From positions 1-64,000 of IMG/VR virus record IMGVR_UViG_3300015263_001568: a stretch of 64,000 bases of DNA; one strand, given 5' to 3'. The notes beneath the pieces were generated by a model that was given only the letters and a program-made list of their open reading frames with translations, ran no database searches and was not told the origin of the DNA. The translations under genes were made by a program, and so were the position numbers. Positions 20,122 to 50,000 of this stretch are shown here, piece after piece. How positions within the stretch are numbered: position 1 is the first letter of the stretch; each line of letters begins with the position of its first letter. Origin of the DNA: a virus.

Positions 20122-20820
20122 TCACTCGACTTCCCAAGAATCGGAACCGTCATCGGTATCGGCTGACGCAAAGTCTAGATCGTCATCGTCTTCCATTGCG
20201 TGCAGCTTTAGCTGAGAAGACTTCTTGGACTTCTTCTTGTCCTTCTTGCTCTTCTTCGCCTTCTTGTCCTTCTTCGGGCGCCCACGCTTCTTGGGAGCCT
20301 CCTCCGTTTCGGCCTCGACGTCCTTGTCCTTCTTCGGGCGCCCGCGCTTCTTAGCAGGAGGAGCCTCGTCAGCCTCGGCGTCCTTGTTCTTCTTCGGACG
20401 CCCACGCTTCTTGGGAGCCTCGTCAGCCTCGGCGTCCTTGTTCTTCTTCGGGCGCCCGCGCTTCTTGGGAGCCTCTTCCGTGGTCTCAGACTTCCTCGGG
20501 CGCCCGCGCTTCTTGGGAGCCTCTTCGGCCGCAGCAGCAGCCTTCGGAGGACGTCCACGGCGCTTCTGTGGCGCTGGCGCTGTATCGGCACTCTCCGTCG
20601 CTGGAGCGGCAAGTGGCTCCACCTTGTCGATGCTCTGCACATCTGCGGTAGGAATGTACCGCGTGATGCGCTGATGCAGTGCTGGGCGGCCTCGCCCCTG
20701 CTTCACTACAACATCGAATTGGACCTGCACGAAGCTGCTATCCATTCCGAGAAGCAAGCCATCGACGTTTGCCTTCTTACCTTTGAGGGTTACGCTTACC
20801 TGTTCGGCCTTCTTTGGCAT
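20122..20820 (-). CDS. HMGA-like AT-hook DNA-binding protein with Sm-like N-domain
   Basis: 7 RGRP cores (mostly KKRGRPKK), acidic C-tail EDDDDLDFASADTDDGSDSWEVE, AGGAGG RBS. Confidence 0.85.
   Translation of the reverse strand: MPKKAEQVSVTLKGKKANVDGLLLGMDSSFVQVQFDVVVKQGRGRPALHQRITRYIPTADVQSIDKVEPLAAPATESADTAPAPQKRRGRPPKAAAAAEEAPKKRGRPRKSETTEEAPKKRGRPKKNKDAEADEAPKKRGRPKKNKDAEADEAPPAKKRGRPKKDKDVEAETEEAPKKRGRPKKDKKAKKSKKDKKKSKKSSQLKLHAMEDDDDLDFASADTDDGSDSWEVE
20265..20565 (-). repeat. Tandem coding repeats of the AT-hook unit
   Basis: Repeated cttcttcgg[ga]cgccc[ag]cgcttctt units on the plus strand. Confidence 0.85.
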
Positions 20821-20850: not shown

Positions 20851-22446
20851 CTATGTGAGGTCTTCACGTAGTCGAATGAATCGGTTAAATCGTCCAATCG
20901 CAACTTCTGTCTTATCACCTTGAACGCGAAAGTCAACCTTCATCCCAACGATGTCTTTGCGTTTTTGCCAGTACGTCATACGCTGGTCGTTATCCGACGC
21001 ATGAGCAAACCCCCCACCAACATGAAATTGGCGCCCTTTGTACTTCACCACAAAGTAGCCGAGGCGCTCACCATAACGGTACGAGCAATGCCCCTTCCGA
21101 TGCGTAGAAATCCGGCGGTCCGTCGCATCACTAATAGCTTCACGTAGTTCGGCGCTAAGTGCCCGCGGCCGATCTACAGAACAATGCAAGTACGAACCAT
21201 CGTCTTCGACAGATCCCCACTCCTCCATGATGGCACGTACCTTCTTGACGTCTGCCTTGGAGGCACCCGCGTGCTTGCCCTTACCCGCCACCGCATCAAC
21301 GATGGTACCGGTCACATCATCCTCTGGCTTCAACTTCAGGCACAGGTCGGTACGCTTGAACACATGTGGTGCCTTGGGGTCTTTGACCATGATGCCTTCA
21401 AACGATTGGTCGAGGCACCAATCGTAGTAGGCTTGCATCTCGTCCACGTCCAACACCATCCGATGCGCCAGAATCCACACATTGCTGGAAAATTTGGCAA
21501 CGCGCTTGGCTTTTTGCCAATTGGCTACCGTTGACAATAGCGCCCTTTTACGACGGCTCCACGCCACGTCAAACGATCCGCGCATGTAGTTTGGCAGCCA
21601 GGACCAATCGAATAGCACGCAGCGCACTTCCTTCAAAAAGTCGCGCTTGTTGAAGTTCTTTGTGCTGCGGATCAAACTTGACGTACGGTTCCAGCTTCCA
21701 TCCACTGCCAGAAATTCACCGTCCAAAAAGACGGGTTTGTCTTCGCGCGTCTTGGTGATGCGGTTAAGCGCGCGAGCGATATCACAGAGCTGCGAAGAAA
21801 ATTCCGCTACCTGCTCGATGTGCTCACGGCGCTTATTTCCGCGCGTGTAAATGTGAATGCGCTGCTCAGCCGGAAAGGCAAATACCAATGCGCGCTCGCC
21901 ATCCAGCTTGGGCTCCACCGCCAAGGGAAAACGTGGGCGCTTGCTGCCCTTGTAGACGTCTTCGTACTTCTTTGCCAGCAAGCAGCCGTTAAAGCTCCAT
22001 CCGCGGTCTTTTTCCTCGGTAGAACGCCAGAAGTCCTTTCCCCAAATCTTGGTGATGGTCTTTTTGCTTACACCGATACGTAAATCGTGGTTGAGGATGC
22101 GGCGAAACCACTTCGCGAGATGCTTGGGAACCGACACCAGTAGCCGGTCTGTAGCCATGGAGGCTGTCTGCCCAGTCATTTCGCGTGACGTCAAAGCCTT
22201 TGCCAAGCGCACGAACTTGTCCCACGCTTCCCGCTCATCGGGAACCGTTACCGCCGGGACAAGGTTGGCAGTAGGATGCACATGGTACATGTCGCCACCG
22301 AGTGCCATCAAGACAATGGTACGCAGCAACTGGTTGTCTTTTTCCTGCTCCAAGACAGTCTCTTTGGAGAGGCGACTAGACATGTTCTCCATGTGATCGA
22401 GAGCCTTAATAGCGGCCTCGATTTCTGCCTTCGTGACGCGCGGCAT
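20851..22446 (-). CDS. lig: ATP-dependent DNA ligase
   Basis: Motif I EPKLDGER, motif III FLDGE, IIIa LFD, IV EGIMVK, V KLKP. Confidence 0.93.
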   Translation of the reverse strand: MPRVTKAEIEAAIKALDHMENMSSRLSKETVLEQEKDNQLLRTIVLMALGGDMYHVHPTANLVPAVTVPDEREAWDKFVRLAKALTSREMTGQTASMATDRLLVSVPKHLAKWFRRILNHDLRIGVSKKTITKIWGKDFWRSTEEKDRGWSFNGCLLAKKYEDVYKGSKRPRFPLAVEPKLDGERALVFAFPAEQRIHIYTRGNKRREHIEQVAEFSSQLCDIARALNRITKTREDKPVFLDGEFLAVDGSWNRTSSLIRSTKNFNKRDFLKEVRCVLFDWSWLPNYMRGSFDVAWSRRKRALLSTVANWQKAKRVAKFSSNVWILAHRMVLDVDEMQAYYDWCLDQSFEGIMVKDPKAPHVFKRTDLCLKLKPEDDVTGTIVDAVAGKGKHAGASKADVKKVRAIMEEWGSVEDDGSYLHCSVDRPRALSAELREAISDATDRRISTHRKGHCSYRYGERLGYFVVKYKGRQFHVGGGFAHASDNDQRMTYWQKRKDIVGMKVDFRVQGDKTEVAIGRFNRFIRLREDLT

Positions 22447-23600
22447 TATTCTGCCTTGGTGGTATGGTGGTGCACGGCCTTTTTGACGATGGCCGGCTTG
22501 TACAGCTCACGGAAGTCCTTGAGAGGATACGTCAACGTGATGCCCGCGTGCACGCCTTCGATGCAAATCAGCGAAACCTGCCCTGCGGCATTTTTCGCCA
22601 CGAAGCCCTTGCATGCCATTCCGGTAGCACGGTCCGTCCACGTCACGGTGTCGCCCAGCGCGAACTTGAACTTTTCCTTGTCCTTCGTGCTGCCACGTCG
22701 GCGCATGACGACGCTGTAGTCGCTGAAGAACCTACGCGCGAGGTCGATCTGCTCAGCGTTGGTAAAGCCATTCAGAATATCCTGAACGCTTTGCAGTGCG
22801 TCATCGATCTTCAGCGCCGGATAGGACCTCTGGCACTTTTCCTCGAACCACTTCAACACGCGCTCTTGTCCCCGCAAGTAGTTGTAATGAACTTCCGAAG
22901 CGCGCTTGAGAAGCTCAATCGTGGGCTCGTCCATCCCCATAGCCTCTGGCACCACGTCGGCCATCTCATGGCTAATGAAGAATGACTGGCAGCTCCACTT
23001 GTCCTCACGCATCGGCTCGCCGCTGACCGTGTTCTTCTCGCTGCACACCGCTCCATGAGGGCCTACATACTTCCACACTGCGCACTGTCGGCATTCCAAG
23101 GGGATGACATCGCCGACCACATAGTCCTTACCAGCATGCTGGTAGCCCTTCTGCACTGTGTAGGTAGACGGTAACTGTTTCGGCTTCGGTCCACGCTTTG
23201 CTTGCTCCTTGGAAGACGTTGCAGCCTTTGCAGGCGCAGCAGACTTTACAGGAGCTGCCTTCGCTCCCTTTTTTGGCGGAGCGGGCTCGTCATCCTCGTC
23301 TTCGTCTTCATACTCGAAATCATCATCCTCCTCGTCGCCATCCTCCTCTTCATCGAAGTCCTCGTCGTCTTCGTCCTCGTCGTCTTCGTCGTCCTCCTCT
23401 TCGTCCTCCTCCTCTCCATCCTCGCTATCTTCCCCGTCCTCGCTATCTTCCCCGTCCTCATCCTCATCGTCGAACTCTTCGTCGTCCTCGTCTTCCCCTT
23501 CCTCGTCCTCGAACTCTTCGTCGTCCTCGGTAATATCCTCGTCTTCGTCGTCCAGTGCCTCAACCGCGGCTTCTAGCTTTTTCCGGCTATCCTTAGACAT
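22446..23600 (-). CDS. Protein with about 90-aa D/E N-terminal tract, Cys cluster and C-terminal KOW/SH3-like domain
   Basis: AGGAGG RBS; CRQC..C..C; KFALGDTVTW motif. Confidence 0.75.
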   Translation of the reverse strand: MSKDSRKKLEAAVEALDDEDEDITEDDEEFEDEEGEDEDDEEFDDEDEDGEDSEDGEDSEDGEEEDEEEDDEDDEDEDDEDFDEEEDGDEEDDDFEYEDEDEDDEPAPPKKGAKAAPVKSAAPAKAATSSKEQAKRGPKPKQLPSTYTVQKGYQHAGKDYVVGDVIPLECRQCAVWKYVGPHGAVCSEKNTVSGEPMREDKWSCQSFFISHEMADVVPEAMGMDEPTIELLKRASEVHYNYLRGQERVLKWFEEKCQRSYPALKIDDALQSVQDILNGFTNAEQIDLARRFFSDYSVVMRRRGSTKDKEKFKFALGDTVTWTDRATGMACKGFVAKNAAGQVSLICIEGVHAGITLTYPLKDFRELYKPAIVKKAVHHHTTKAE

Positions 23601-24964: not shown

Positions 24965-27394
24965 TTAGCTTCGATCGTAGCGTGCTGCAATTTGTTGATA
25001 GCGCGCAGGGATGCCGCCTCTATACAGCGTTGACTCATTATTTTCGCGAACAGCCCACCACACTTGGTCCCAAACGGGATCTGCCAAAACTTCAGGCCGA
25101 TGGCTTACGACGAACACCGAGCCGAACTTTTGGCGCAGCATGCCTAGGATGCTGATCAAGCCAGCCGTCCCCTGCGGGTCGAGGCTTCCAAATGGTTCGT
25201 CTACAATGAGCACGTTTGTCGATGACTCTGTGTAGCGCTCTTTAAGGTCTCGCATACCAAACAGCATTGCCAATCCACTTTTGTGCTGCTCGCCTCCAGA
25301 TAGCAAGCTGCTACGCGTGGCAATATTACCATCTCGGCGACGGAGTTGGAATTGTATCGCATCCATGCTCTCTGACAACTCCAAGTCCACCGTGCGTCGG
25401 GGCCAGAGCACACTACTATACACCGGTACAGTAGTCTCAGTCGCGTCCTGCAAGATGGCGCGAAATCGATCTTGCTTGAGACCTTGGCTGCCGAATGCTT
25501 TCTTGAGGGCCTCCAGGCAGCGCTTGTTGCGCAGGATGCCAGTACCCTTAGCCAACCCCTTACGGACTTGAGCAAGCCGTGCCTGGAGCGTCTCCGATGC
25601 GCTGAGGCGCTCTTCCAGGATGGCTATCTGCCGACTCAGGTCTTCGGTCTGCGCAGTAGCGGAGCTGACGATCTTCTCGGCTCTGGCTAGCTGCTCCGCA
25701 GTCTGCTCGCGATTGCCTTTGGGAAGATCATCCATCTGGTCAATCCGAGTGCGCACCCGAGCAATAGCCTTCGCTCGTCGGCGCAGAGCGTTCGCCTTTT
25801 TGTGCAACCCGGCGATCTGCTCTTCTGGAACCGTACCGCGTGCATCTATTTCTTGTATCTGAATCTCAAGATCGTGCTTTTGCTGCGAAATTTCTTTTTC
25901 AGCCACCAGTTCTTTTTCCCGCTTGGTGGCTGTACGGATATCGCGCTGCACCTCTACCGGTGTGCGGGTGGTATCGATGGACTTGAGCCGTGCAGCTAAC
26001 TGCTCATACTTTTCTGAAGTTTCTAGCGCCGACTTGGCAGCGAATATTTCCTTCTTGACTTTACGCAGCTGCTGTCGGGCACCGCGCAGCTTTTCCCGCA
26101 GTGCTTCTGGATCGCTTTTTGTGTCGAGAGGGCGGTGGCACGTTGGGCAAACGCTCTTGTCTAAATGGCGTACTGTTACCTCTATCTCACGCTCTAGCGC
26201 CCCTTCTTCACGCATATACGCTTCTACTTGCTTGCGCAGCGGCTCAACATTTTCAGGCGGCTTGTCGAGTCCGGCCAGCTCTTCCGTGATTTCGTATCGC
26301 TGCTCAGCCTGTGGTAGCTCGGTATTTTGTAGGTAGCGCAGCTGTGACTTTACTTCGCTCAAGTCGGTGTCGATGTCCGCTAAGGCACGTCCAGACAGCT
26401 TGGACAGCTGGCGCTCAAGAATGTCTCTTCGTTGCGCTGCTTCACGTTGACGTTGCGCTGTATGATATGCATCCGACGCATCGGTGGCTTGTTGGTCGAT
26501 GGATTCGACTTCGGCGTCATCGATATCCGACGGTTTGTCGTACCATTTCCCGAGGTCTGCATCGTCCCAGATCACTCTGACCTGCTCAATAAGTTGCTTG
26601 CGCTGGTCGAGCTGGTTCAAGCGATCTCGTAGCTCCCGTGATTCCTGTACAGCCGCGTTGGACTCTGTGCGCAGCTCTTTTAGCTGGCGCTTGCGCTTCT
26701 TGAGTCTGGAACGCATTTTGTCGACATCACCAATATCGCCAGCGCGCGCTTCGAGGCTACCCAACTCGCGTTCCAAAGCCTCGATGTCGACCAAGCTAGT
26801 GGCCACGGATTTTTCACGGTCTCGGAAAATGGCGTACATGTTGTCGAAGACATCAAGCCCAAACATCTCTGTCAGGCGTTTGTAGCGATCGCTTCGCTTA
26901 CCATGCAGTAGCACATGGCTTAGCTTCTGCGGCAGGTACACCAAGTTGAAAAAGCTTGTGTCATCCAGACCTAGGTGAGCCTCACGGATCCATTTATGCG
27001 GCGCACGCGCAGCTCTGCTCGGAATGATGTTTTGGCCTGTGGACGTGTCCACAACACGGATCGCATCACCGTGAAGCGTGTGCTTACGATATTGTCGAAT
27101 TTCAAACGGGCGGCCATCTACGCGGTATTTTAGCACCGCCTCGAAGTCTTTTCCCGCAAGGTCGTTGACAACGTCGTTCTTGGAAAATTCCTGGCCCGAG
27201 CCTCGACCTCCGTAGCCTACCTGGATACTGGAAAATATTTCCCACAGTGAGGTTTTTCCACAAGCCAGGAAGCCACCATCGTCTACGTTCAATCCGCGCA
27301 CCAACACCAACCCTTGACCATCCAACGGTAAGTCGCAGTGGCGGTAGACGTAGCCGTTTTTGAACGTCAGGTGATCGTACTGAATGTGCGGCAT
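24965..27394 (-). CDS. sbcC: SbcC/Rad50-like SMC ATPase
   Basis: Walker A ACGKTS, Zn-hook CPTC in the coiled coil, signature LSGGE, Walker B/D-loop IVDEPFGSLD, H-loop VSH. Confidence 0.93.
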   Translation of the reverse strand: MPHIQYDHLTFKNGYVYRHCDLPLDGQGLVLVRGLNVDDGGFLACGKTSLWEIFSSIQVGYGGRGSGQEFSKNDVVNDLAGKDFEAVLKYRVDGRPFEIRQYRKHTLHGDAIRVVDTSTGQNIIPSRAARAPHKWIREAHLGLDDTSFFNLVYLPQKLSHVLLHGKRSDRYKRLTEMFGLDVFDNMYAIFRDREKSVATSLVDIEALERELGSLEARAGDIGDVDKMRSRLKKRKRQLKELRTESNAAVQESRELRDRLNQLDQRKQLIEQVRVIWDDADLGKWYDKPSDIDDAEVESIDQQATDASDAYHTAQRQREAAQRRDILERQLSKLSGRALADIDTDLSEVKSQLRYLQNTELPQAEQRYEITEELAGLDKPPENVEPLRKQVEAYMREEGALEREIEVTVRHLDKSVCPTCHRPLDTKSDPEALREKLRGARQQLRKVKKEIFAAKSALETSEKYEQLAARLKSIDTTRTPVEVQRDIRTATKREKELVAEKEISQQKHDLEIQIQEIDARGTVPEEQIAGLHKKANALRRRAKAIARVRTRIDQMDDLPKGNREQTAEQLARAEKIVSSATAQTEDLSRQIAILEERLSASETLQARLAQVRKGLAKGTGILRNKRCLEALKKAFGSQGLKQDRFRAILQDATETTVPVYSSVLWPRRTVDLELSESMDAIQFQLRRRDGNIATRSSLLSGGEQHKSGLAMLFGMRDLKERYTESSTNVLIVDEPFGSLDPQGTAGLISILGMLRQKFGSVFVVSHRPEVLADPVWDQVWWAVRENNESTLYRGGIPARYQQIAARYDRS

Positions 27395-27927
27395 TATGGT
27401 GTGGGTTTCTTCGGCTTCTTCGGTTTAGTGGCGGTGCTCTTAGGCTTGCTAGTTTTCGTCTTCGTTGTCTTTGCTTTACTCGTCGGCTTTACGACAGAGG
27501 TACTTTCTGCTTTTGGTTTGCGCTTAGTGGTGCGCTTTACCGGCGGAGGCGGTTCTTCCACAGTAGGAACTTCTGGTGCAGTAGGAACTTCTGGGGCAGC
27601 TTCTATGACAACTGTAGTTTCTGGCTCGATGATGGGCGTATCGATCGGCTCGGGGATGACGTCTTCCAGCACTTCTGGTGGCAAAGGCGCCATTTTTGCT
27701 TGTGCCAGCTCCAACAAACGAATGAAGTCCCCCATCAATACAAGGCGCCGGCCACGGCCCACCAAACCAGACCGCAGATGCTGCTCCTGGTCTTCACGTA
27801 GCTGCATCACTACATAGACGTTGTTGACATCCTCTTCAATAGCAGCCGCCAGATCACGGGCGTTCCTGCTAGAGAGAAATGCAGCCAACGTCACATGTGG
27901 GTCAGATTTTTCAGACATCTTACCCAC
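27394..27927 (-). CDS. Hypothetical protein with P/E-rich then K/T-rich disordered tail
   Basis: ORF track and composition; the start could instead be the internal MSEKSD. Confidence 0.65.
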   Translation of the reverse strand: MGKMSEKSDPHVTLAAFLSSRNARDLAAAIEEDVNNVYVVMQLREDQEQHLRSGLVGRGRRLVLMGDFIRLLELAQAKMAPLPPEVLEDVIPEPIDTPIIEPETTVVIEAAPEVPTAPEVPTVEEPPPPVKRTTKRKPKAESTSVVKPTSKAKTTKTKTSKPKSTATKPKKPKKPTP

Positions 27928-29339: not shown

Positions 29340-30401
29340 CTAGTCATCCTCGTAGGGGTTGCTGAAGGAAACACCTAGTTCCTTTGCCGCCGCGTCGACG
29401 AACTTGAACGCGTGTGGCAAATACTCCTCCGGCAGACCAGCTTGCAGCAGTGTGTTGTCCAACCCGTCGAAAATGCCATGCACTCGGCGCGCATTCTGTG
29501 GAAGCGCTCGCGCCGGCATCTCTTCTCCAGGTTCAACATTCATCGGTAAAGGCATGGTGGACGTGGGCATCGCGTGGAGCTTCACAAAAGCTTCAGCCGC
29601 GCTAGGCCACACGTCAGGAACTTCATGTAGTTCAATCAGCTTGGTAGAACGTATTGGGACGTATTTCGGATTCGTTGGATCGGCGGTATCGACGACCAAA
29701 ACGCCTTTGTCGAGGTCTTCTCCAAATCTCGTTTGGTGCGGTGCGCCGCAGTACCACGCATTGGGCAAAATCGACTGCCGTTTATGGATGTCTCCAAGTG
29801 CCCAATAAGTAACGCCGTCGATCGGTTCCAAGTGCACTTGCGCATTCGACGTCACCATGAGCCCAGTATCCGTTTTGCTACCCACCACATTTTCATGCAG
29901 CACGACAATGATTGGCTCACGATGACGCTGCGCATACCGCACCATCGAGTGCACCATCAAGTAGACCTCTGCATCCTTCCACCCGTGACTGGGATCTCTA
30001 GCGGGAAACAGAAGCAGCTGACATCCATGCATCGACTTTATCAATGGCAAGCCGTCATGAATGAAATGCTTCCCCAAAATGTCGGTCATCCGGCTCAAGT
30101 AGCTAAGCGACGTATCCCCAATTTGACTTGAACGCACATCATGGTTCCCGCTGATCATCACGATGGGAACCGGCGACGACGCCAGCCAGTCCGTGAGGAC
30201 TTGTCGTTCTTGATGCAGGATGTCGCGGCGTTCCCAAATGTCACCAGCAACGATGGTAAAGTCGACGCGGTGCTTTCTAGCCGCCTTATGTATGCCCTCC
30301 AACGTCTGCACCATCCGACGCAAATACGCGGCCTGACTATGATCAGAGAACCGCCGCAGCGCATTGATGTGCAAATCGGACGTATGCAGAAACCTAGGCA
30401 T
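29340..30401 (-). CDS. sbcD: SbcD/Mre11-like metallophosphoesterase nuclease
   Basis: HTSDLH, AGD, GNHD and LGDIH motifs. Confidence 0.9.
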   Translation of the reverse strand: MPRFLHTSDLHINALRRFSDHSQAAYLRRMVQTLEGIHKAARKHRVDFTIVAGDIWERRDILHQERQVLTDWLASSPVPIVMISGNHDVRSSQIGDTSLSYLSRMTDILGKHFIHDGLPLIKSMHGCQLLLFPARDPSHGWKDAEVYLMVHSMVRYAQRHREPIIVVLHENVVGSKTDTGLMVTSNAQVHLEPIDGVTYWALGDIHKRQSILPNAWYCGAPHQTRFGEDLDKGVLVVDTADPTNPKYVPIRSTKLIELHEVPDVWPSAAEAFVKLHAMPTSTMPLPMNVEPGEEMPARALPQNARRVHGIFDGLDNTLLQAGLPEEYLPHAFKFVDAAAKELGVSFSNPYEDD

Positions 30402-30775
30402 CAGAGGTCGTGCGGCCGAGCCGTCTTGCGCGCATTCTCCTGCACGCGCTTTACAGCCTTCAGCATCATGCCATAGACTTCGTGGGCAAGAGCGCTGGTA
30501 AGCTTGGGATCGATGCGCACGTCGTGGTACTTGAAGTATTCCTTGATTTTAGAAGCGGTCAGGATCTTGACGCCCATCTCCTTAACGGCCTTCTGGTGCG
30601 CCTCCAACCGAGCGCGCTTGTCATTGCTCTGAGCCGACCCATCAGCACCCTTCTTGGACTTCTTTTTCTTCTTTGCCACAGGAGCATCACCCTCGGTCTT
30701 TGCCTTCTTCTTTTTCTTCTTCGCTGTGGTGGCGTCGCCGTCGGTGATGGTCTTCTTAGTCTTCTTTTTCTTCAT
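30401..30775 (-). CDS. Histone-fold protein (bacterial short-alpha3 type) with K-rich N-tail, from an internal start
   Basis: AAGGAG 8 nt before ATG 30775. Core ILTASKIKEYFK..VRID..SALAHEV..MMLKAVKRVQENARKTARPHDL carries the RKTxxxxD histone signature. Confidence 0.8.
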   Translation of the reverse strand: MKKKKTKKTITDGDATTAKKKKKKAKTEGDAPVAKKKKKSKKGADGSAQSNDKRARLEAHQKAVKEMGVKILTASKIKEYFKYHDVRIDPKLTSALAHEVYGMMLKAVKRVQENARKTARPHDL

Positions 30776-31318
30776 TGAGTCGGCTCCTTGTCCATGCCGT
30801 TTATGATGACATGGTATGCAGAGTGTGCGCATGTTAGCGAGGTCACATTGTCCTCCACCTTGATGCACAGGAATGATGTGGTCGGCATCCCAATAGCCCC
30901 GAGATTTTCGTGCCCCACGCGGTGCTCCCAAGATACGCTGCCAATGCATGGCATCGATAGTGCGCTCGGCAGACACAGTGTCGAGACCGCATTCTGCGCA
31001 TATACCACGGTCGCGAGAGTAGACTTGTCTGCGTAGATATCTCGGATCGCTACGGAGTTTGAACTCTTCCACACAATGGTCTGAGCAAAACGTGCGGCGC
31101 CCTTTCGGCACCTCGATTTTGCAGTAGCGGCAGAGGCTGCGGCCGTTCGCACCTTTGGGCAATAGCTGCGGGTAGCGAACACGTCCGCGGAACGCGCCAC
31201 TACGCATAGTGCCGTCTGCCTCAAAGTACATTTTCGTGTACTGTGCACGTAGTTGCTCAACCTCTGTGTCAGACAGCGCACTTAAAGGCCGACGGCGTCT
31301 TCGATGGCGTTTTCTCAT
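30401..31318 (-). CDS. HNH endonuclease fused in frame to a lysine-tailed histone fold
   Basis: RDRGICAECG, DADHIIP and NMRTLCIPCH HNH motifs; no stop before MKKKK...RKTARPHDL. Confidence 0.8.
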   Translation of the reverse strand: MRKRHRRRRRPLSALSDTEVEQLRAQYTKMYFEADGTMRSGAFRGRVRYPQLLPKGANGRSLCRYCKIEVPKGRRTFCSDHCVEEFKLRSDPRYLRRQVYSRDRGICAECGLDTVSAERTIDAMHWQRILGAPRGARKSRGYWDADHIIPVHQGGGQCDLANMRTLCIPCHHKRHGQGADSMKKKKTKKTITDGDATTAKKKKKKAKTEGDAPVAKKKKKSKKGADGSAQSNDKRARLEAHQKAVKEMGVKILTASKIKEYFKYHDVRIDPKLTSALAHEVYGMMLKAVKRVQENARKTARPHDL

Positions 31319-31729: not shown

Positions 31730-32697
31730 TAAGACCTATGCAAAATAGCTCCTACTGGAAGCTTGGTGCTCTTCCAGCCTCGGTGCTTTTGTAGTTCCTC
31801 AACGTAGACTACCGCGGCCCCCTGTAGGCCACCGAGCTGCTGGAGCACCGCAGCAGCACGATCACGCGATGGTCGTGCCCAGAATACCGTATTCGAGCCG
31901 TCGTAGAAACTCGTGACTTTTTCAATGGGCGAATGGTCGATTTGCATCGTGAGCAGCCGCCCATGTACATCGCCCAAGCGACTATCGATCAAGTCAAGCT
32001 GCTGGTAGAAAGCTGCTGCTTGACGCCGATCAAACGCCTCTTCTGGATGCCGAGGTTGCAGCAAGCCTGTACGTCGCCGGAGACCGGCTACAAGCTGTCG
32101 CCGTGCTTCCAGGTAGAAGGCCCATATGGTTGCCGACAAAGGCTTCCTATGGGCCTCTACAGGCGTCCAGGTAGCAAGCCAGACATCCTGCGCAGCGACC
32201 GGCATCAGCCGACTCAGGGCAAACAAGCGCTGCCGTTCAACGCCCGTGCGCAGTGCATGAAAGAGGCCGAAGGCTAAACTATTGATATCATTGAAAACTT
32301 CAATGGACGAAGGCGGAAACCCAAGCCAAGGCGGACTGCCGTTACCGAGAAGGTCTACGCGCGTGCGAAATGCCTTCCAAAATGGCTCGACCACTTCTTC
32401 GACCGCACCTTTCGTGGTGAGCCACTTTGACACACTTTCTGCCCAACGAGTAGCCTTTGCCGCAGCGAGCACGAGGACGTTTCGCTGGGCATCCTGTAAA
32501 CGCTGTAGGAAGCTCTTGAGGTCACTCAAGGGTTTCGCTACCTGCCAGGTACCACTGGGGCCTTCCTTGGCGCCTCGTGGCGTCCAGGAGGCATCCCAAG
32601 ACTGTGCTGCATGGATAGTGCAGTGTGGCCCGCCGTTGCGCTTGCCGTGGATGACGCACACAGTGTCCGCAAGGCTATTCGTCATCGTCATCGGCAT
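31729..32697 (-). CDS. Hypothetical protein
   Basis: 322 aa, coupled to recA. Confidence 0.65.
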   Translation of the reverse strand: MPMTMTNSLADTVCVIHGKRNGGPHCTIHAAQSWDASWTPRGAKEGPSGTWQVAKPLSDLKSFLQRLQDAQRNVLVLAAAKATRWAESVSKWLTTKGAVEEVVEPFWKAFRTRVDLLGNGSPPWLGFPPSSIEVFNDINSLAFGLFHALRTGVERQRLFALSRLMPVAAQDVWLATWTPVEAHRKPLSATIWAFYLEARRQLVAGLRRRTGLLQPRHPEEAFDRRQAAAFYQQLDLIDSRLGDVHGRLLTMQIDHSPIEKVTSFYDGSNTVFWARPSRDRAAAVLQQLGGLQGAAVVYVEELQKHRGWKSTKLPVGAILHRS

Positions 32698-33964
32698 AAT
32701 AGCGGGACCGCGGAGCTGCGTCTGTCTTCGATTTGGTCTTCTTGGCTTTCTTTGATTTTTTGGTAACAGCTGTCGTTTCTATGACAATTGGAGTCTTCGT
32801 ACGCGGCTTCTTGGTGGTAGCCGTCGCAACCACATCCTCTCCATAGTCCTTGTCGAAGTTGTACGTACGATTACCAGAAATCTCAAAAAAGCGGTCGTAG
32901 TTTTCAGGCTGCTGCAACATCAGAAAGAACTTCTGTCGATTGCGCGGACTGTAGCTCATCTTACGAAACGATGGCAGGTCCCACTTCTTGTTATCGAGGC
33001 CCTTGAGGTTGATCGAACGCCTTCCAGCCGCCGTCTTCAAAAATCCCAAGGCTGCCAAGAATTGCTGCGTGTCGTACGCCTTATCCACGCCATGGCCTGG
33101 GATGATCTGCAAATCAACGGTGAGCCAACTAGGAAAGCACTTGTTCTTTGTGGTGCGCACCGTCGCCGGAATAATTTGGACACCCATACTATCCCGGCTC
33201 TCTTTTCCAAGTGTCTTGTCACTGCGTCGACTTACGCGCAGCTTGTAGTCCGGATAAAATCGCAGCGCTTTTCCGCCAGTTTCTTGGTCAGGGGCACCAT
33301 AGGCACCAATGTTGCTCCGCACTTGATTTGTGCCGACCAACACGCCGCCTTTTTTGCGCAGGCGTACCTTAATTTGCTTCAGGTACTGACTATGCATCCT
33401 AGGCTCCGGTGTGATGCCACCACCCGTGCCTGTTTCCTCATCCACGTTTTCACTGCTCAATGCCGCAAAACTGTCGACAAAAAATGCGATAGTTGGAGGA
33501 CCCGACGTCACATCCGGCATCCGATTAAGCGTGCGCATGATGAGGCGATATGTGTCTTCTCCCGTGTCAGGCTGTGCGTAGTAAAAAGACGCGTACTTCT
33601 GCTTACCAACGCTTAGCTTGTGCTCAATCCGTAGTCCTTGCCGCTGCATGAACACAGGATCGGCACCAGTTTCTGGATCGAGGAACACTACAGGAATGCC
33701 TTGTAGCTGTGCCGACACGGCAATTTCTTGTAGTAAGGTAGATTTACCAACGTGTTCTCCGCCAAAGATGGTGCAGAACCGACCACGCTGAAGTCCGCCA
33801 CCGAAAATCAAATCCAGCGATAGGACACCTGTAGAAAGGCAGTCGAGGACACGCTGACCTTTCATCAGATTGATTGGGTCTAATCCATCAATGGAGGCAA
33901 ACGCTTCGGCAACAGCCTGAGAAGGATGTACCAGGTTGTATTCGCGCTTTTTCTTTTTCGCCAT
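32675..33964 (-). CDS. recA: RecA/UvsX recombinase
   Basis: STGVLSLDLIFGGG, Walker A GGEHVGKST, QPDTGE, VDS, NQVR, GGKALRFY and KNK motifs. Confidence 0.95.
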   Translation of the reverse strand: MAKKKKREYNLVHPSQAVAEAFASIDGLDPINLMKGQRVLDCLSTGVLSLDLIFGGGLQRGRFCTIFGGEHVGKSTLLQEIAVSAQLQGIPVVFLDPETGADPVFMQRQGLRIEHKLSVGKQKYASFYYAQPDTGEDTYRLIMRTLNRMPDVTSGPPTIAFFVDSFAALSSENVDEETGTGGGITPEPRMHSQYLKQIKVRLRKKGGVLVGTNQVRSNIGAYGAPDQETGGKALRFYPDYKLRVSRRSDKTLGKESRDSMGVQIIPATVRTTKNKCFPSWLTVDLQIIPGHGVDKAYDTQQFLAALGFLKTAAGRRSINLKGLDNKKWDLPSFRKMSYSPRNRQKFFLMLQQPENYDRFFEISGNRTYNFDKDYGEDVVATATTKKPRTKTPIVIETTAVTKKSKKAKKTKSKTDAAPRSRYYADDDDE

Positions 33965-34397: not shown

Positions 34398-36146
34398 TTA
34401 CCGCCCGCGACCTTTTCCCGAGCGCTTCTTTGCCGGTGGCTCGTCGTCCTCATCCTCCTCATCCTCGTCGTCCTCGTCCTCATCGTCTAGATCGTCGTCG
34501 TAGTCCTCATCCTCCTCATCCTCGTCGTCTAGATCGTCGTCGTCATCCTCGTCCTCGTCGTCCTCATCCTCGTCGTCCTCGTCGTCCTCATCCTCGTCGT
34601 CGTCCTCGTCGTCCTCATCCTCGTCGTCTAGATCGTCGTCGTCCTCGTCGTCCTCATCCTCATCCTCGTCGTCCTCGTCGTCCTCGTCCTCGTCGTCCTC
34701 ATCCTCGTCGTCTAGATCGTCGTCGTCCTCGTCGTCCTCGTCCTCGTCGTCTTCGTCCTCGTCGTCCCCATCCTCGTCGTCCTCGTCCTCGTCCTCGTCG
34801 TCTTCGTCCTCGTCGTCCCCATCCTCGTCGTCCTCGTCCTCGTCCTCGTCGTCCTCGTCCTCGTCGTCCTCGTCCCACTCTTCGTCGTCATCTTGTACAA
34901 AGCTACGCCCACTGGGTGGCGTCTCCGCCTCGTCTTCGTCGTCGTCATCATCATCTAGATCAGGCTTGGATGGCTTGGCCTTTTTAGCCGGCTTCTTTGC
35001 CGACTTTTTCGCGCTGCTCTTCTTTGCAGGCTTGGCATCTTCTTCATCCTCGTCCTCATCATCTAGGTCAGGCTTGGACTTTTTCGCGCTGTTCTTCTTT
35101 GCAGGCTTGGCGTCCTCATCAGCGCCCTTTTTACCTTTCTTACCCCAGCCCTTCCAGTCATCACCAGCGTCGTCATCGTCATCATCCGACTTCGATTTGG
35201 ACTTCTTCGGCTTCTCAGCCTTCACCTTGCCGGCCTTCTTGCTCTTGTCCTTGACCTTGGACTTTTTCTTATCCTTGTCTTTTGTCTTGGCGGCCTTCTT
35301 ACCCTTGGACTTCTTCGGAGTCTCTTCCTCTTCGGCATCGTCATCAGTCTCGTACTCGAAGTCGTCATCAGTGACTTTGGATTTCTTCTTGGAACTACTG
35401 CTTGTGCTCTTCACTGCGCTTCTCCCAGTTGTTTTTTCCAGTAGAGTGTAGAGACCCACCCGTTCTAGATCAATGCGTGTAGTGGCGCCGTCTTGCAGAC
35501 CGGCATTCCACATGCTCAAAAAGTCCTGTTCTCCTCCCTCGTACACGCGCTTGCCAACTTTGATTTGATAAATGTCATCGAGTTGCTTAATGGGTAGCCG
35601 GTCACCCTTTACGAACGCATCCTTTTCCTTAGAGTCCTTAGCGTCCTTATTGTGCGTCCAGTACACGGACACACCATACTTCGGATGTACGATGGTGCCC
35701 TCACCGCCCCTAATGGTCTTGCTGATATTTAGCAAGTCGGTGTACCCATACTTGTTCAACTGCATCGCCCCAGTACCGTTTTGCACATTGCCCTGCTCCA
35801 ATGCAGTAATGTTGAAACTATGTGCGATGTAGCGCCGTTGTGGGTAAAAGAGAAGTTCTTCTGGCAGATCGTCACCGGTGAAGTCAGCGCACAAAGGGCA
35901 ATCGCACTTGTTCGCCGGAAGGGTGCTATCGTTCACTGGATCGAAGTTCGAGCAAAGCTGCGGGAACGTCTTTACTTCACCCTTCTTGTTTATAAACCTG
36001 ATCCAGTGCCACACGAGCACAAAAATGTGTCCGTAAAGCCTATGGATGTGTTGTCGACCGCCAGCTGGCGGTTCGTGATAATGCGCCTTGCCGTCCCACC
36101 GTTCACGCTTGTTGCTCGTACGTGGCGGATTATTCCAATCGTGCAT
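34398..36146 (-). CDS. gp32-like single-stranded DNA-binding protein with K-rich linker and about 150-aa D/E tail
   Basis: HWIRF..QLC..CDCPLC..RRYI Zn-SSB pattern; GAGGAG RBS; position upstream of recA. Confidence 0.7.
   Translation of the reverse strand: MHDWNNPPRTSNKRERWDGKAHYHEPPAGGRQHIHRLYGHIFVLVWHWIRFINKKGEVKTFPQLCSNFDPVNDSTLPANKCDCPLCADFTGDDLPEELLFYPQRRYIAHSFNITALEQGNVQNGTGAMQLNKYGYTDLLNISKTIRGGEGTIVHPKYGVSVYWTHNKDAKDSKEKDAFVKGDRLPIKQLDDIYQIKVGKRVYEGGEQDFLSMWNAGLQDGATTRIDLERVGLYTLLEKTTGRSAVKSTSSSSKKKSKVTDDDFEYETDDDAEEEETPKKSKGKKAAKTKDKDKKKSKVKDKSKKAGKVKAEKPKKSKSKSDDDDDDAGDDWKGWGKKGKKGADEDAKPAKKNSAKKSKPDLDDEDEDEEDAKPAKKSSAKKSAKKPAKKAKPSKPDLDDDDDDEDEAETPPSGRSFVQDDDEEWDEDDEDEDDEDEDEDDEDGDDEDEDDEDEDEDDEDGDDEDEDDEDEDDEDDDDLDDEDEDDEDEDDEDDEDEDEDDEDDDDLDDEDEDDEDDDEDEDDEDDEDEDDEDEDDDDDLDDEDEEDEDYDDDLDDEDEDDEDEEDEDDEPPAKKRSGKGRGR
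34440..34895 (-). repeat. Low-complexity GAC/GAG/GAT coding repeat (D/E tract)
   Basis: tcg/tcc/tca triplets with a recurring tctagatcgtcgtcg unit (DDDLDDEDE). Confidence 0.9.
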
Positions 36147-46538: not shown

Positions 46539-47042
46539 TTGAGCCCGCGTATCGCCATCTCGACTACTGGCTACCCCGTCAAGACGGGTGTGGCAACGGA
46601 GATACAGGTTGGTAGCCTCCGTCACCTTCTACAAGCCGCGGAGAGCCTCGCTGAGCAGCCCTACCGGCTTGTGGCTATCTACCCCTTTGGCCAACCTCGA
46701 AAAGCCGTATACGACGTCCTAGACAGCCTGGAGAAGTCCCTTTGCTCTGCCAAGGTGCTGGTGGTCTGCCGGCACGGCGCGCAGGCCATAGTGCCCGACT
46801 TCCTTCAGCCGCACCAACGGCTCCGGCGGCCAAACGGGCACATCGATGTCATGGTCCACGTTGACCGTGACTTGGCGTGGGAGCCGCCCACGAATCTTTC
46901 GCTCGACATCCATCCGACGACAGGGCGATTCAGCCGCTGGGCTATTCAACAAGGCTTGGTGCCGATCGTTCTGCGCCGGATAACGTCTGTTCAAAAGTGC
47001 AAGGACCTCTACAACCTTCTAACCGCTGAGGCAGCTCTATGA
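46539..47042 (+). CDS. Hypothetical protein
   Basis: TTG start after AAGGAG; ATGA overlap with nrdJ. Confidence 0.6.
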   Translation: MSPRIAISTTGYPVKTGVATEIQVGSLRHLLQAAESLAEQPYRLVAIYPFGQPRKAVYDVLDSLEKSLCSAKVLVVCRHGAQAIVPDFLQPHQRLRRPNGHIDVMVHVDRDLAWEPPTNLSLDIHPTTGRFSRWAIQQGLVPIVLRRITSVQKCKDLYNLLTAEAAL

Positions 47043-50000
47043 TCCAAGCGACCTATCAACAGCGAATCATGCTCGACCGCTACGCGCAGAAGGACCCGCA
47101 CGCAAAGCCAAAGGAAGGCGACTTGGTCATCGTCAAGATGACGCGCTCTTTTTCTTTGGATGGCGAGGAGATCACATCGCGTGAGCTTGGGCAAATTACC
47201 GAGGTCACCAATGGCGGCGGACCGGCACGCTACACTGTCGAGCTGGAAAATGAGATCGTAGCCGATCTCGATCGTAGCCGTGTAGAAGTCATCGTTGAAA
47301 AGACACCCGAGGACATCTGGCAGCGCTTGGCCAACGGCATCTGCAAAGCTGAATTTCTATATCTCAGCAATCCTCCGGACAGCCTTGCCTGGCAGCACAT
47401 TCAGTACCAGCTTGATCAAGCCGTGCTCCCGGACCAATGGAAGCCCATCCGGGAATTCCGCGACAAAGTCTATTCGGCGTTGTCACGCAATGAGTTCATT
47501 CCAGCCGGTAGAATCCAAGTTGGCCTCGGTCGAGAAGACCTCACGCTGACCCTGTTCAACTGCTACGTGCTGCCGCGACCTGAAGATTCTAGGCACGGCA
47601 TCACACGCCGCTGGGGTGAGATGTTCGAGATTTTCGCGCGTGGCGGCGGTATTGGATTTGACGTTAGCAGCATGCGCCCCGCCGGTGCGCCAGTTGCCAA
47701 AGTCAGTGGGCGATCCAGCGGCGCCATCAGTTGGATGGAGCAATGGAGCCAAGTCACCGGAGAAGTGGAGCAGGGCGGCTGCTTTTCTGGCAATACACGC
47801 ATTGCCACCACCAAAGGTTTAATCCGCGCAGAGGATCTAGCGAACCGTATTGACGCCGGCGCGCCGCACTGTGTGTATACGCATTCTCGTCCTCCAAGAC
47901 ACGTCACGCACGTTTTCCGAAATGGCCAGAAACGATTCTTTCGCGTGACCACCAAACGTGGCTATGAAATCGAAGTCACGGGTGACCACAAGATGGGTGT
48001 GCTCAAAGAAGGGCGCATTGAAACGGTGCCGCTAAAGCACCTTTCTGTTGGCGACAATGTGCTTCTATTGCTTCCAAAATGCCAATTCCCCGAGAAGTCC
48101 GCTGTGGAGTTGTCGGCAATCGACTACGAAAAGCCAAAGATGAGCACCACGCTCAACGAAGACGTGCGCTTTCCAATCACACTAAATGGGAAGCTCGCGT
48201 ATGTACTCGGCTACATGTACGGCAACGGTAGCGTCATCATGGGCAAGAAAGTCACATGGTCGTCGCCCAAAGGCATTTCGATGTCCGTGCCAACCAGTCG
48301 AGAAGACATTGCATGCAAACTGCAAGATTATATCCTCGACTGTTTTGGAGTGGTCGCCGAAATGGAGCCAGGCGACGGAGCCTGCGTGAATGTGAAACTG
48401 TACTCGCGCATCGTGGTGGAGTGGCTGAATACGAATGGCCTACTGAAGAAAAAAGCTGCGGATATCCGTGTACCCGAGCAGATATTTCATGCACCGGAAA
48501 CGGTAGTCAGCTCATTCGTTTCCGGCTACTTCGACGCAGATGGATCCGACCGCGGCATCAAAGGAGGCTACGGATTCGACTCTATCAGCAAAGGTATGCT
48601 GCAAGACGTGCAGAAGATTCTAGCCAGCTTTGGCATCGCTGCCAAGCTACGTCCAGAAGACCGGTCTTCTACAGGGTGGAGCACCCTCTACAGACTATCT
48701 GTAACGGGACCCGTATTTAAGGAACGCTTCATGGACTTCGCACGCTGGTCGATGAAGGCACAGCGACATACATCCAGGCGTGACACGAACATGTACCCGA
48801 TGGAAGCCTTCAAATCGTGCCAGGTGGATCCCAAGCTCTATAAAGGCTTGGTAGCAATTTCCTATGACGTGGTCTCGTATGCTGCGGTTAGCCGCGTTTT
48901 GGATCGCGCCGGTGATGAAGGACTGGGTGGGTCTGAACAGGCTGCCAAGATGGACGCACTGCTAAACGTTCTACCGGATGCCATTGATAGCATCGAAGAC
49001 GTCGGCATGATGGACGCTTTTGACTTTGAAGTCGATGAAGTCCACATGCTCAGCGGCGATGGATTCTACACCTCGAATTCCCGAAGAGGCGCTACGCTCT
49101 TTGGTATCGCGCCTTGGCATCCTGATGTCGAGCGCTTCATCGAGGTCAAGTCGGAGCGCAGCGCTTTCCGCATGTCGGGTGACGAGCTGCTTCAAAGCCT
49201 CAACCCCGAGATCATGGAGCAGTTCGGCGCACAGCTTCGTAAAATCTTCGTTGGGAAGGAAGATGCTGCCTCGATCAGCCGCAGCAAAGACCTCATCAAG
49301 AACGCCAATATCAGCGTGCTGTTCACCGAGGCGTTCATGGATGCCGTCGAGCGCGATGACTACTGGGACTTCGTTTTCCCTGACACCTCAGATCCGGAGT
49401 ACGACGCCATCTGGCATGGTGACATCGAGGCTTGGCGCGCGTTGGGCAAGCCCGTCATCCACTACGGCACCAAGAAGGCACGTGATCTTTGGTACCGCCT
49501 CATCGACCGTGCGTGGGCGTCGGGAGAGCCAGGTGTCCTTTTTGTCGATAGAATGAACGAAATGAGCAATAGCTGGTACTATGCGCCCATAGAGTGCACA
49601 AACCCGTGCGTTACCGGTGATTCGCTCATCTACACCAGCCGCGGTCTGATCACGGTGGACGATCTGATGGCGGAGCGCACGCAGCCCCAATATCTTGTCG
49701 ACAGCCGCTTCGGCTACGAGCCTACATTTTCTGAAGGCACCAAATTCTGGTGCTCGGGTGAGAAGCCCATCTATCGTCTAGAGACTAAAGAAGGCTACAC
49801 CATCCGCGCCACAGCCGACCACAAGATCATGACGTCGCGCGGGTGGGTGCAACTTGCGAAGTTAAAGGAAGGCGACAAAGTGCACATCGCCAATCGCGGT
49901 GGCGCTTTCGGAAAAGAAGGCACGCTAGAGTTCGGCCGCGTCTTGGGCTGGTTCATTGGCGATGGATATTTCACTGGTGAAAAAGCCATATTGGATTTCT

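What the first reader, a model, noticed from the sequence alone, without database searches (positions are those of the whole stretch)
30401..30775. Phage-encoded histone with a eukaryote-like lysine-rich N-terminal tail
Seen: the C-terminal 55 aa (KILTASKIKEYFKYHDVRIDPKLTSALAHEVYGMMLKAVKRVQENARKTARPHDL) show the helix1-loop-long helix2-RKTxxxxDL pattern of short-alpha3 bacterial histones (Bdellovibrio Bd0055 / Leptospira type). It is preceded by a tail with 20 Lys in the first 42 residues, built from a duplicated T[DE]GDAxxAKKKKK unit. The stop is coupled to sbcD (TGATG). Phage histones have been noted in surveys but are rare, and a long K-rich tail is unusual and a possible modification target.
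Basis: partly seen in the sequence, partly recalled or inferred. Interest (0 to 1): 0.9.

Follow-up and report, generated by a model that had tools for sequence, protein, structure and literature searches.

The report
Tailed phage histone nested behind HNH
A roughly 350-kb marine-sediment phage encodes a small bacterial-type (face-to-face) histone with a lysine-rich tail; this kind of viral histone is already published, but here and in one other related phage its reading frame runs on without a stop from an HNH nuclease gene.

Summary
Window 30404-30775 (minus strand) encodes 124 aa: a disordered tail (20 Lys in 42 residues), an extra helix, then an alpha3-truncated histone fold. A family profile hits the solved histones HLp (E 2e-18), HTkC (1e-12) and HBb (4e-9). 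The AF2 model superposes on HLp at 0.9-1.0 A. The face-to-face tetramer residues (R110, N114, R116, T118, D123) are the family's most conserved columns.

The contig is a tailed phage (portal, terminase). A histone gene sits directly upstream of sbcD in 7 of 7 phages of one SbcD clade; one member is a complete 349,793-bp genome.

[quoted passage not shown] Tail sequence is not conserved among orthologues, and nothing supports a modification role.

The histone keeps its own AAGGAG-ATG. The same HNH-no stop-SD-ATG-histone layout recurs in a non-sister clade member. I expect two products: the 124-aa histone and a probable HNH-histone fusion.

The scan noted the in-frame HNH before, on this same stretch.

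The parts
30404..30775 (-). 124-aa tailed histone CDS (stop TGA at 30401-30403)
   Evidence: Translation. This exact 124-aa sequence is already a called protein in the public collection. Homologues; orthologues upstream of sbcD in six related contigs.
30638..30775 (-). Disordered Lys-rich N-terminal tail, residues 1-46 (20 K, 0 R, 5 D/E; pI 10.4), with two T[DE]GDAxxAKKKKK units
   Evidence: No secondary structure and block-mean pLDDT 50-63 over this stretch. Composition and unit identity.
30563..30637 (-). Extra N-terminal helix alpha0 (residues 47-71), absent from HLp/HTkC/HBb
   Evidence: AF2 helix 47-71. Aligned in the closest subfamily and in the clade orthologues. Residues 56-73 contact the partner chain in the oligomer model.
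30404..30562 (-). Alpha3-truncated histone fold (residues 72-124: alpha1 74-83, alpha2 90-113, L2 RKTARPH, alpha3 121-123)
   Evidence: Profile against PDB: HLp 2e-18, HTkC 1e-12, HBb 4e-9. Foldseek TM 0.89, rmsd 0.8 A to HLp. VIA Z 7.7, 57/57 aligned.
30784..30789 (-). Shine-Dalgarno AAGGAG, 8 nt upstream of the histone ATG, lying inside the HNH reading frame
   Evidence: Read directly. SD-like motifs also precede the orthologous starts in L002, L003 and L008.
30776..31318 (-). ZRANB3-like HNH endonuclease segment, in frame with the histone and without a stop (starts possible at ATG 31318 or ATG 31207)
   Evidence: Pfam HNH 32.8 bits against a cut-off of 21.4. phrog_11604 7.7e-20. PDB 5mkw 1.5e-11. 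Invariant Cys/DH/N/CH columns kept. Lys codons AAG:AAA 0:8 against 27:4 in the histone part.
29340..30401 (-). sbcD, whose start overlaps the histone stop (TGATG); synteny anchor
   Evidence: phrog_100 2.2e-22. Orthologues 41-46% identical, each with a histone directly upstream.

Best explanation
Window 30404-30775 (minus strand) is a conserved gene of a clade of ~350-kb tailed phages. It encodes a face-to-face (FtF) type, alpha3-truncated histone. By inference, handshake dimers pair into tetramers through alpha2-C/L2/alpha3 (R110, N114, R116). These bind DNA without sequence specificity through alpha1 (A74 S75 K76, K78, K82) and the L1/L2 loops, and wrap or bridge about 60 bp as shown for HLp. 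The 46-residue Lys-rich tail adds electrostatic DNA affinity and charge neutralisation. The gene always lies in the replication/recombination block (uvsX ... histone-sbcD-clamp loader-sbcC), so it most likely coats and compacts phage DNA in the infected cell. In this phage a ZRANB3-like HNH endonuclease gene lies immediately 5' in the same frame with no stop, while the histone keeps its own SD and ATG. The locus therefore probably gives two products. One is the 124-aa histone (very likely). The other is a 268-305-aa HNH-tail-histone fusion (probable), which could co-assemble with free histone and tether the nuclease to histone-bound DNA. Shown: fold homology, conservation, synteny, open frame, SD. 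Inferred: oligomer state, DNA binding, role of the tail, translation of both products.
For: Fold:
- phmmer of the 305-aa ORF hits HTkC 9f2c (2.9e-4) and HLp 9qt0 (7e-3).
- The family profile hits HLp 2e-18, HTkC 1.1e-12 and HBb 4e-9.
- 8 of 26 family members hit Pfam DUF1931 and 7 of 26 hit CBFD_NFYB_HMF.
- AF2 block-mean pLDDT is 87-95 across residues 51-124.
- Foldseek and VIA top hits are all histones; HLp gives TM 0.89, rmsd 0.8-1.0 A, Z 7.7.

FtF signature:
- HLp R49/N53/R55/T57/D62 align to R110/N114/R116/T118/D123.
- These are the invariant or near-invariant columns of the family alignment.
- 4-copy model: ipSAE 0.91, best of 3 controls 0.27. That mark was reached by 20 of 30 proteins solved as pairs and 1 of 23 solved as single chains. 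The runs agree in 100% of contacts and partner pLDDT is 93.
- Dimer-dimer contacts fall at 109-110, 113-114, 120 and 122-123. HLp and HTkC tetramers are solved, so this pass may be from memory.

Gene reality:
- Stand-alone orthologues start at the homologous Met with SD-like motifs.
- The histone is directly upstream of sbcD in 7 of 7 members of a 100/100-supported SbcD clade and in 0 of 5 outgroup loci.
- There is one copy in a complete 349,793-bp genome with terminal repeats.

HNH:
- The domain is intact.
- The window's closest relatives, L005 and L006, have uvsX-orf322-histone-sbcD without it.
- Codon usage differs sharply inside the one ORF: Lys AAG:AAA 0:8 against 27:4, Fisher p 8e-6; GC3 0.52 against 0.74.
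- The same in-frame HNH / internal GAGGAG-ATG / histone layout is found in L008, whose sister L009 lacks the HNH.
- All 36 other IMG/VR HNH ORFs in which the catalytic motifs could be located stop 7-55 aa after the C..CH motif.
Against: - There is no experimental or expression data. No run on record as RNA holds the stretch.
- The junction without a stop could not be checked in reads. A single-base assembly error creating the open frame in the window cannot be excluded, although L008 shows the same layout independently.
- Foldseek E-values are weak (6e-3) because the domain is short, and Z 7.7 alone is in the range of common helical arrangements.
- The in-frame fusion could be tolerated rather than selected.
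- Nothing tells whether the protein acts on phage DNA, on host DNA or inside the capsid.
Confidence: 0.72

Rival explanations
1. The in-frame HNH is an accident of a selfish insertion. A mobile HNH gene landed 5' of the histone and lost its stop. Only the 124-aa histone matters functionally, and any fusion protein is a tolerated by-product or is not made.
For: HNH is absent from 5 of 7 clade members, from the 222-kb relative G001 and from the window's nearest relatives. Codon usage looks foreign. The histone's SD and ATG are retained. In the HNH tree the two fused HNHs are not sisters, and 0 of 200 bootstrap trees join them.
Against: The same no-stop, in-frame layout occurs in two non-sister phages. 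The 36 other IMG/VR HNH ORFs examined all end 7-55 aa after the C..CH motif. Two independent in-frame losses of a stop, or one frame kept open while HNH diverged to 51% identity, both suggest selection. The HNH catalytic and zinc residues are intact.
Confidence: 0.3
2. The only real product is the 305-aa HNH-histone fusion, in which the histone fold and K-rich tail serve as the DNA-binding and oligomerisation module of the nuclease. The internal ATG is not used.
For: One uninterrupted ORF. The layout recurs in L008. HNH catalytic domains usually need an added DNA-binding module (general knowledge).
Against: Orthologues in five relatives are stand-alone and start at the homologous Met. A strong SD precedes the internal ATG in both fused cases. 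Codon bias of the histone part (AAG 27:4, GC3 0.74) differs from the HNH part.
Confidence: 0.08
3. One reading: a eukaryote-like histone tail that serves as a platform for regulatory lysine modification.
For: 20 Lys in a disordered N-terminal tail.
Against: Tail sequence, length and charge are not conserved among the seven orthologues; L008 has none. The tail is poly-K runs with acidic spacers, unlike H3/H4 tails. No GNAT is found in the 80-kb contig, though that is only 23% of the genome. Comparable tails are common in the prokaryotic family (PMC11390915).
Confidence: 0.05
4. The protein is packaged in the virion as a DNA-condensing, charge-neutralising internal protein for the very large genome, rather than acting on replicating DNA in the cell.
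For: Extreme positive charge (pI 10.3). The genome is ~350 kb. By general knowledge, some large eukaryotic viruses package histones in the virion.
Against: The gene lies in the replication/recombination block and is translationally coupled to sbcD, not among the structural genes. There is no direct evidence either way.
Confidence: 0.15

Closest known systems
HLp, face-to-face histone of Leptospira perolatii (PDB 9QT0-9QT2; PMC12701072)
   Same: Alpha3-truncated fold, 30-32% identity, rmsd 0.8-1.0 A over the whole chain. RD clamp and tetramer residues R49/N53/R55 are conserved, as are the alpha1 residues ASK.K...K.
   Different: HLp is a 63-aa chromosomal protein with a 7-residue N-terminus. 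The phage protein adds a 25-aa helix alpha0 and a 46-aa Lys-rich tail, is virus-encoded, and is read in frame with an HNH gene.
[quoted passage not shown]
   Same: Caudoviricetes-encoded FtF-like histone fold with an N-terminal Lys-enriched tail, predicted to be tetrameric.
   Different: The published tails are 5-40 aa, whereas this one is 46 aa plus alpha0. In the passages I read, the paper does not mention the sbcD synteny, the ~350-kb clade or any HNH fusion. No supplement was held, so I could not check whether this contig is in their set.
HTkC, archaeal FtF histone of Thermococcus kodakarensis (PDB 9F2C)
   Same: 36-38% identity over the fold, TM 0.86-0.89.
   Different: Archaeal, without a tail and without alpha0.
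HBb / Bd0055 of Bdellovibrio bacteriovorus (PDB 8CMP, 8FVX)
   Same: Alpha3-truncated bacterial histone; profile E 4e-9, Z 6.6-7.0.
   Different: HBb is a dimer that bends DNA. The phage protein matches the tetrameric FtF type better and keeps the tetramer residues.
'Phage histones' category of Schwab et al. 2024 (A0A2E7QIQ9; PMC11390915)
   Same: Phage-encoded alpha3 histone fold.
   Different: That category has the fold at the N-terminus, a C-terminal tetramerisation helix, and lacks RxTxxxxD. Here the fold is C-terminal and the motif is present.
ZRANB3 HNH domain (PDB 5MKW) and stand-alone ~170-aa phage/bacterial HNH proteins (phrog_11604)
   Same: The upstream segment shares the zinc-ribbon plus HNH core at 50-60% identity with the stand-alone forms.
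   Different: The stand-alone forms end 7-55 aa after the C..CH motif. Here and in L008 the frame continues into a histone.

Membership tests
Face-to-face (FtF) alpha3-truncated histones (Schwab 2024; HLp, HTkC) | Histone fold with alpha3 cut to 3-4 residues and a shortened alpha2 | tested here: met
   AF2 model: alpha1 74-83, alpha2 90-113 (24 aa), alpha3 121-123; block-mean pLDDT 87-95 across residues 51-124.
Face-to-face (FtF) alpha3-truncated histones (Schwab 2024; HLp, HTkC) | RxTxxxxD motif / RD clamp in loop L2 | tested here: met
   R116-K-T118-A-R-P-H-D123. R116 is near-invariant and T118 and D123 are invariant in the 26-sequence alignment.
Face-to-face (FtF) alpha3-truncated histones (Schwab 2024; HLp, HTkC) | Conserved tetramerisation residues (HLp R49, N53, R55) | tested here: met
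   They align to R110, N114 and R116, the most conserved columns of the family. Definition taken from PMC12701072.
Face-to-face (FtF) alpha3-truncated histones (Schwab 2024; HLp, HTkC) | Significant sequence and structure similarity to solved members | tested here: met
   Profile E 2e-18 (HLp) and 1.1e-12 (HTkC). TM 0.86-0.89. Z 7.3-7.7 with full-length coverage.
Face-to-face (FtF) alpha3-truncated histones (Schwab 2024; HLp, HTkC) | Homotetramer through the alpha2-C/L2/alpha3 interface | tested here: met
   In silico only. ipSAE 0.91 against best control 0.27; that mark was reached by 20 of 30 proteins solved as pairs and 1 of 23 solved as single chains. Dimer-dimer contacts at 109-110, 113-114, 120, 122-123. 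Solved HLp/HTkC tetramers exist, so the pass may reflect likeness.
Face-to-face (FtF) alpha3-truncated histones (Schwab 2024; HLp, HTkC) | Sequence-independent DNA binding, wrapping or bridging | not testable with these tools
   Only conservation of HLp's DNA-contact positions (A74 S75 K76 K78 K82 T118) can be shown.
[quoted passage not shown] | Encoded by a Caudoviricetes genome | tested here: met
   Portal, large terminase and connector in the window. IMG/VR virus record.
[quoted passage not shown] | N-terminal tail enriched in lysine (5-40 aa) | tested here: met
   46 disordered residues with 20 K, slightly beyond the published range.
'Phage histone' category of Schwab 2024 | N-terminal alpha3 fold plus C-terminal tetramerisation helix, without the RxTxxxxD motif | tested here: not met
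   The fold is C-terminal, there is no C-terminal helix, and the motif is present.
Bacterial dimer histones (HBb/Bd0055 type) | Best similarity to HBb and a dimer-only assembly | tested here: inconclusive
   HBb is a weaker match (4e-9 against 2e-18; Z 6.6-7.0 against 7.7) and the tetramer residues are present. The oligomer state was not measured.
Eukaryote-type modifiable histone tail | Conserved tail sequence and cognate writer or eraser enzymes | tested here: inconclusive
   The tail is not conserved among 7 orthologues. No PF00583 match in the 80-kb record, but that is only 23% of the genome.
HNH endonuclease (Pfam PF01844; ZRANB3-like, phrog_11604) | Pfam score above the gathering cut-off, with the DH...N...CH core and zinc cysteines | tested here: met
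   32.8 bits against 21.4. phrog_11604 7.7e-20. 5mkw 1.5e-11. Invariant C26, C29, C41, C45, C70, C73, D109, H110, N125, C130, C133, H134 of alignment A4.

The most novel reading that the evidence does not exclude
A clade of ~350-kb phages organises its own DNA with a dedicated tailed face-to-face histone that is a fixed part of the recombination/replication module. In this phage it acts together with an AT-hook protein and polyacidic chaperone-like proteins. In at least two lineages the histone gene has become a two-product gene whose long form tethers an HNH nuclease to histone-coated DNA. This HNH-histone domain architecture is not among the categories in the two histone surveys read here.
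Probability: 0.2. Interest if true: 0.75.

Novelty: new variant of a known kind. Interest (0 to 1): 0.5.

Why it matters
Bacterial-type histones in phages are known only from metagenomic surveys, and none has a tested function. This locus adds three testable things.

- It defines a phage clade, including one complete 349,793-bp genome, in which the histone is a fixed neighbour of sbcD/uvsX. That points to a role on replicating or recombining DNA.
- It provides a natural series of orthologues with tails from 0 to 46 residues, suited to testing what the tail does.
- It shows a recurrent in-frame HNH-histone arrangement with a retained internal start. This could be a nuclease delivered to histone-bound DNA, or an example of how selfish HNH genes fuse to host genes.

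The histone itself, and its lysine-rich tail, are not new in kind.

Tried and rejected
- Read laying on the one holder run (marine sediment metagenome, possibly the source sample) laid nothing, so the stop-less junction could not be checked.
- No RNA holder is listed.
- Scans of viral contigs with P0068, alignment A2 and P0076 found no relatives. Relatives were reached only through P0086 and through SbcD as anchor.
- INPHARED phages: no tblastn match to the histone domain.
- GTDB genome contigs with P0073: none. Alignments A1 and A2 were too variable for pattern scans.
- Pfam on the protein itself gives no histone family at E<=1; only family members and the profile do.
- PHROGs: no family for the 124-aa protein.
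- TRF does not call the two tail units.
- The promoter/terminator scan was uninformative on the minus strand.
- The AU test does not reject a single origin of the two fused HNHs (p 0.092), so 'two independent fusions' remains the more parsimonious reading, not a demonstrated one.
- G002 (the contig of L017, the stand-alone HNH closest to L008's) holds neither sbcD nor histone in its 197 kb, so it says nothing about adjacency.
- No supplement of PMC13681535 is held.

Full report
**What is there.** On the minus strand an ORF runs from ATG 30775 to TGA 30403-30401 and gives 124 aa.
- The quoted 55 C-terminal residues are present.
- There are 20 Lys in the first 42 residues.
- There are two T[DE]GDAxxAKKKKK units. 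They are 29/42 identical at DNA level, so the duplication is old or convergent, and TRF does not call them.
- The stop overlaps the sbcD start as TGATG.

The finding's gene model left one thing out. The frame has no stop upstream until beyond ATG 31318, so the open frame is 305 aa. Its first ~180 residues are an HNH endonuclease: Pfam HNH scores 32.8 bits against a cut-off of 21.4, phrog_11604 gives 7.7e-20, and the ZRANB3 HNH domain 5mkw gives 1.5e-11. A canonical AAGGAG lies 8 nt before ATG 30775, inside that frame.

**Source.** The window is part of an 80,099-bp IMG/VR virus record estimated at 23% complete. It carries a portal, a large terminase and a connector. It also carries a replication/recombination set: UvsX-like recombinase, SbcC, SbcD, clamp loader, ligase, helicases and a sigma factor. 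The stretch is held by a marine sediment metagenome. This is a tailed phage of roughly 350 kb.

**The fold.**
- phmmer of the ORF against PDB sequences hits HTkC (9f2c, 2.9e-4) and HLp (9qt0, 7e-3) with the C-terminal 55 residues.
- An exhaustive HMMER search with the last 75 aa found 35 representatives at E<=1e-3. Nearly all are 65-150-aa proteins ending NxRKTVRPxDL.
- A profile of 26 of them hits HLp at 2e-18, HTkC at 1.1e-12 and HBb/Bd0055 at 4e-9 and 8e-9. Of the 26 members, 8 hit Pfam DUF1931 and 7 hit CBFD_NFYB_HMF.
- AF2 with that alignment gives residues 1-46 disordered, a helix alpha0 at 47-71, alpha1 at 74-83, alpha2 at 90-113 and alpha3 at 121-123. Block-mean pLDDT is 87-95 across residues 51-124.
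- Foldseek's best hits are all histones: HLp has TM 0.89 and rmsd 0.8 A, HTkC 0.86-0.89, HBb 0.76-0.82. The E-values are weak (6e-3) because the domain is short. VIA-align gives Z 7.7/7.5/7.3 with the whole target aligned.
- HLp's tetramer residues R49/N53/R55, its RD-clamp D62 and DNA-contact T57 (PMC12701072) align to R110/N114/R116/D123/T118. These are the invariant or near-invariant columns of the family.
- A four-copy model scored ipSAE 0.91 against a best control of 0.27. That mark was reached by 20 of 30 proteins solved as pairs and 1 of 23 solved as single chains. The runs agree in 100% of contacts and partner pLDDT is 93. Dimer-dimer contacts fall at 109-110, 113-114, 120 and 122-123. 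Tetramers of HLp and HTkC are solved, so this pass shows likeness and not binding.

The protein is therefore a face-to-face type alpha3-truncated histone. It does not fit the 'phage histone' category of Schwab et al., which has an N-terminal fold, a C-terminal helix and no RxTxxxxD (PMC11390915).

**A conserved phage gene.** Three relatives show the same neighbourhood:
- L002 (metagenome contig): uvsX, then a 97-aa histone, then sbcD, clamp loader and sbcC.
- L003 (221,679-bp IMG/VR contig): uvsX, a phosphatase, a 109-aa histone, sbcD, and further on clamp loader and sbcC.
- Neighbour proteins are 36-43% identical to the window's.

I then used SbcD as an anchor, which gave ten IMG/VR loci, and searched six-frame ORFs with the family HMM. 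A histone lies directly upstream of sbcD in all seven members of one SbcD clade (support 100/100) and in none of five outgroup loci. One member is a complete 349,793-bp genome with terminal repeats and a single histone copy. All orthologues begin at the homologous Met, and SD-like motifs precede the L002, L003 and L008 starts. This supports the 124-aa product.

**The tail.** The tail is the least conserved part. Among the seven orthologues it ranges from none (L008) through short basic stretches (L006, L005, L009, L002) to an AT-hook-bearing tail (L003) and the 46-residue tail here. Across the wider family about a quarter of representatives have strongly basic N-extensions, for example P0098 with 24 K and P0096 with 19 K and 9 R. 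The literature already states two things. Bacterial FtF histones commonly have positively charged tails (PMC11390915). Viral FtF histone-fold proteins from IMG/VR have 5-40-aa Lys-rich N-tails (PMC13681535). The tail is thus at the long end of a known feature. A generic electrostatic role fits the lack of sequence conservation better than a modification code. No GNAT was found, but only 23% of the genome is available.

**The HNH.** Its homologues are ~170-aa stand-alone proteins. In the 36 other IMG/VR HNH ORFs where the catalytic motifs could be located, the ORF stops 7-55 aa after the C..CH motif. The HNH is absent from five of the seven clade members, from the 222-kb relative G001 and from the window's nearest relatives L005 and L006, which have uvsX-orf322-histone-sbcD. 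Inside the single ORF the codon usage changes sharply: Lys AAG:AAA is 0:8 in the HNH part against 27:4 in the histone part (Fisher p 8e-6), and GC3 is 0.52 against 0.74. This is the signature of an inserted gene.

L008 has the same architecture: SD-ATG HNH, no stop, GAGGAG-ATG histone, then sbcD. L008 is sister to L009, which lacks the HNH, and is not sister to the window. In the HNH tree L008's HNH groups with a stand-alone HNH (support 100/89), and 0 of 200 bootstrap trees join the two fused HNHs. An AU test does not formally reject a single origin (p 0.092).

Either scenario points to selection. One is two separate in-frame losses of a stop. The other is one frame kept open while the HNH diverged to 51% identity. 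In both cases the read-through form looks selected or at least well tolerated. I therefore expect two products: the histone, and a probable HNH-tail-histone fusion that could join histone oligomers.

**Mechanism.** This is inferred, not shown. Handshake dimers pair into FtF tetramers that bind DNA non-specifically and wrap or bridge ~60 bp, as HLp does. The tail adds affinity and charge neutralisation. The fixed place between uvsX and sbcD suggests action on replicating or recombining phage DNA. Packaging into the virion or action on host DNA cannot be excluded.

**Novelty.** The histone is a new member of a published kind. The new elements are the alpha0 helix, the fixed synteny in a ~350-kb phage clade, and the recurrent in-frame HNH with a retained internal start. 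Other first-stage notes of this scan on the same stretch had already flagged the in-frame HNH. I tested that here and extended it to a second phage.

Noticed in passing
window 20122-20820 (-): 232-aa protein with seven K(K)RGRP(K/R)K AT-hook cores separated by acidic linkers, followed by a K-rich stretch and an acidic C-terminus. It has no PHROG family. Lys codons are AAG:AAA 42:1, like the histone.
   Followed up: partly
window 22446-23600 (-) and 34398-36146 (-): Two proteins with very long D/E tracts (about 100 and 150 residues) and no PHROG family. They sit in the same block as the basic histone and the AT-hook protein and could act as acidic chaperones or counter-ions.
   Followed up: no
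window 32675-33964 (-); L002 5655-6878: The UvsX-like recombinases of this clade end in a K-rich stretch followed by an acidic tip (...KKSKKAKKTKSK...DDDDE here...KKKKKK...SSEEEEE in L002).
   Followed up: no
window 47039-53644 (+): 2201-aa ORF whose ribonucleotide reductase large-subunit matches are split into three stretches. Endonuclease-, terminase- and helicase-like matches lie between them, which suggests inteins or inserted domains.
   Followed up: no
L003 2705-3034; P0073: Tails of some family members carry AT-hook-like cores (KRGRPKGS in L003/P0086, RGPGRPKGS in P0073). The tail can therefore be a minor-groove binder rather than plain poly-K.
   Followed up: no
P0074, P0075, P0077, P0079, P0089, P0102: The same histone family also occurs as tandem doublets of 120-150 aa. 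Two of these (P0077, P0079) begin with a hydrophobic, signal-peptide-like N-terminus, which is odd for a DNA-binding protein.
   Followed up: no
window 27394-27927 (-): 177-aa protein of no PHROG family between the clamp loader and sbcC, with a Pro/Lys/Thr-rich basic C-terminal tail (...KPKKPKKPTP).
   Followed up: no
L020, L023, L033, L036 and other GVMAG records: The same ZRANB3-like HNH family is frequent in giant-virus MAG records of IMG/VR as ~160-aa stand-alone genes, so the family moves between very different large viruses.
   Followed up: no
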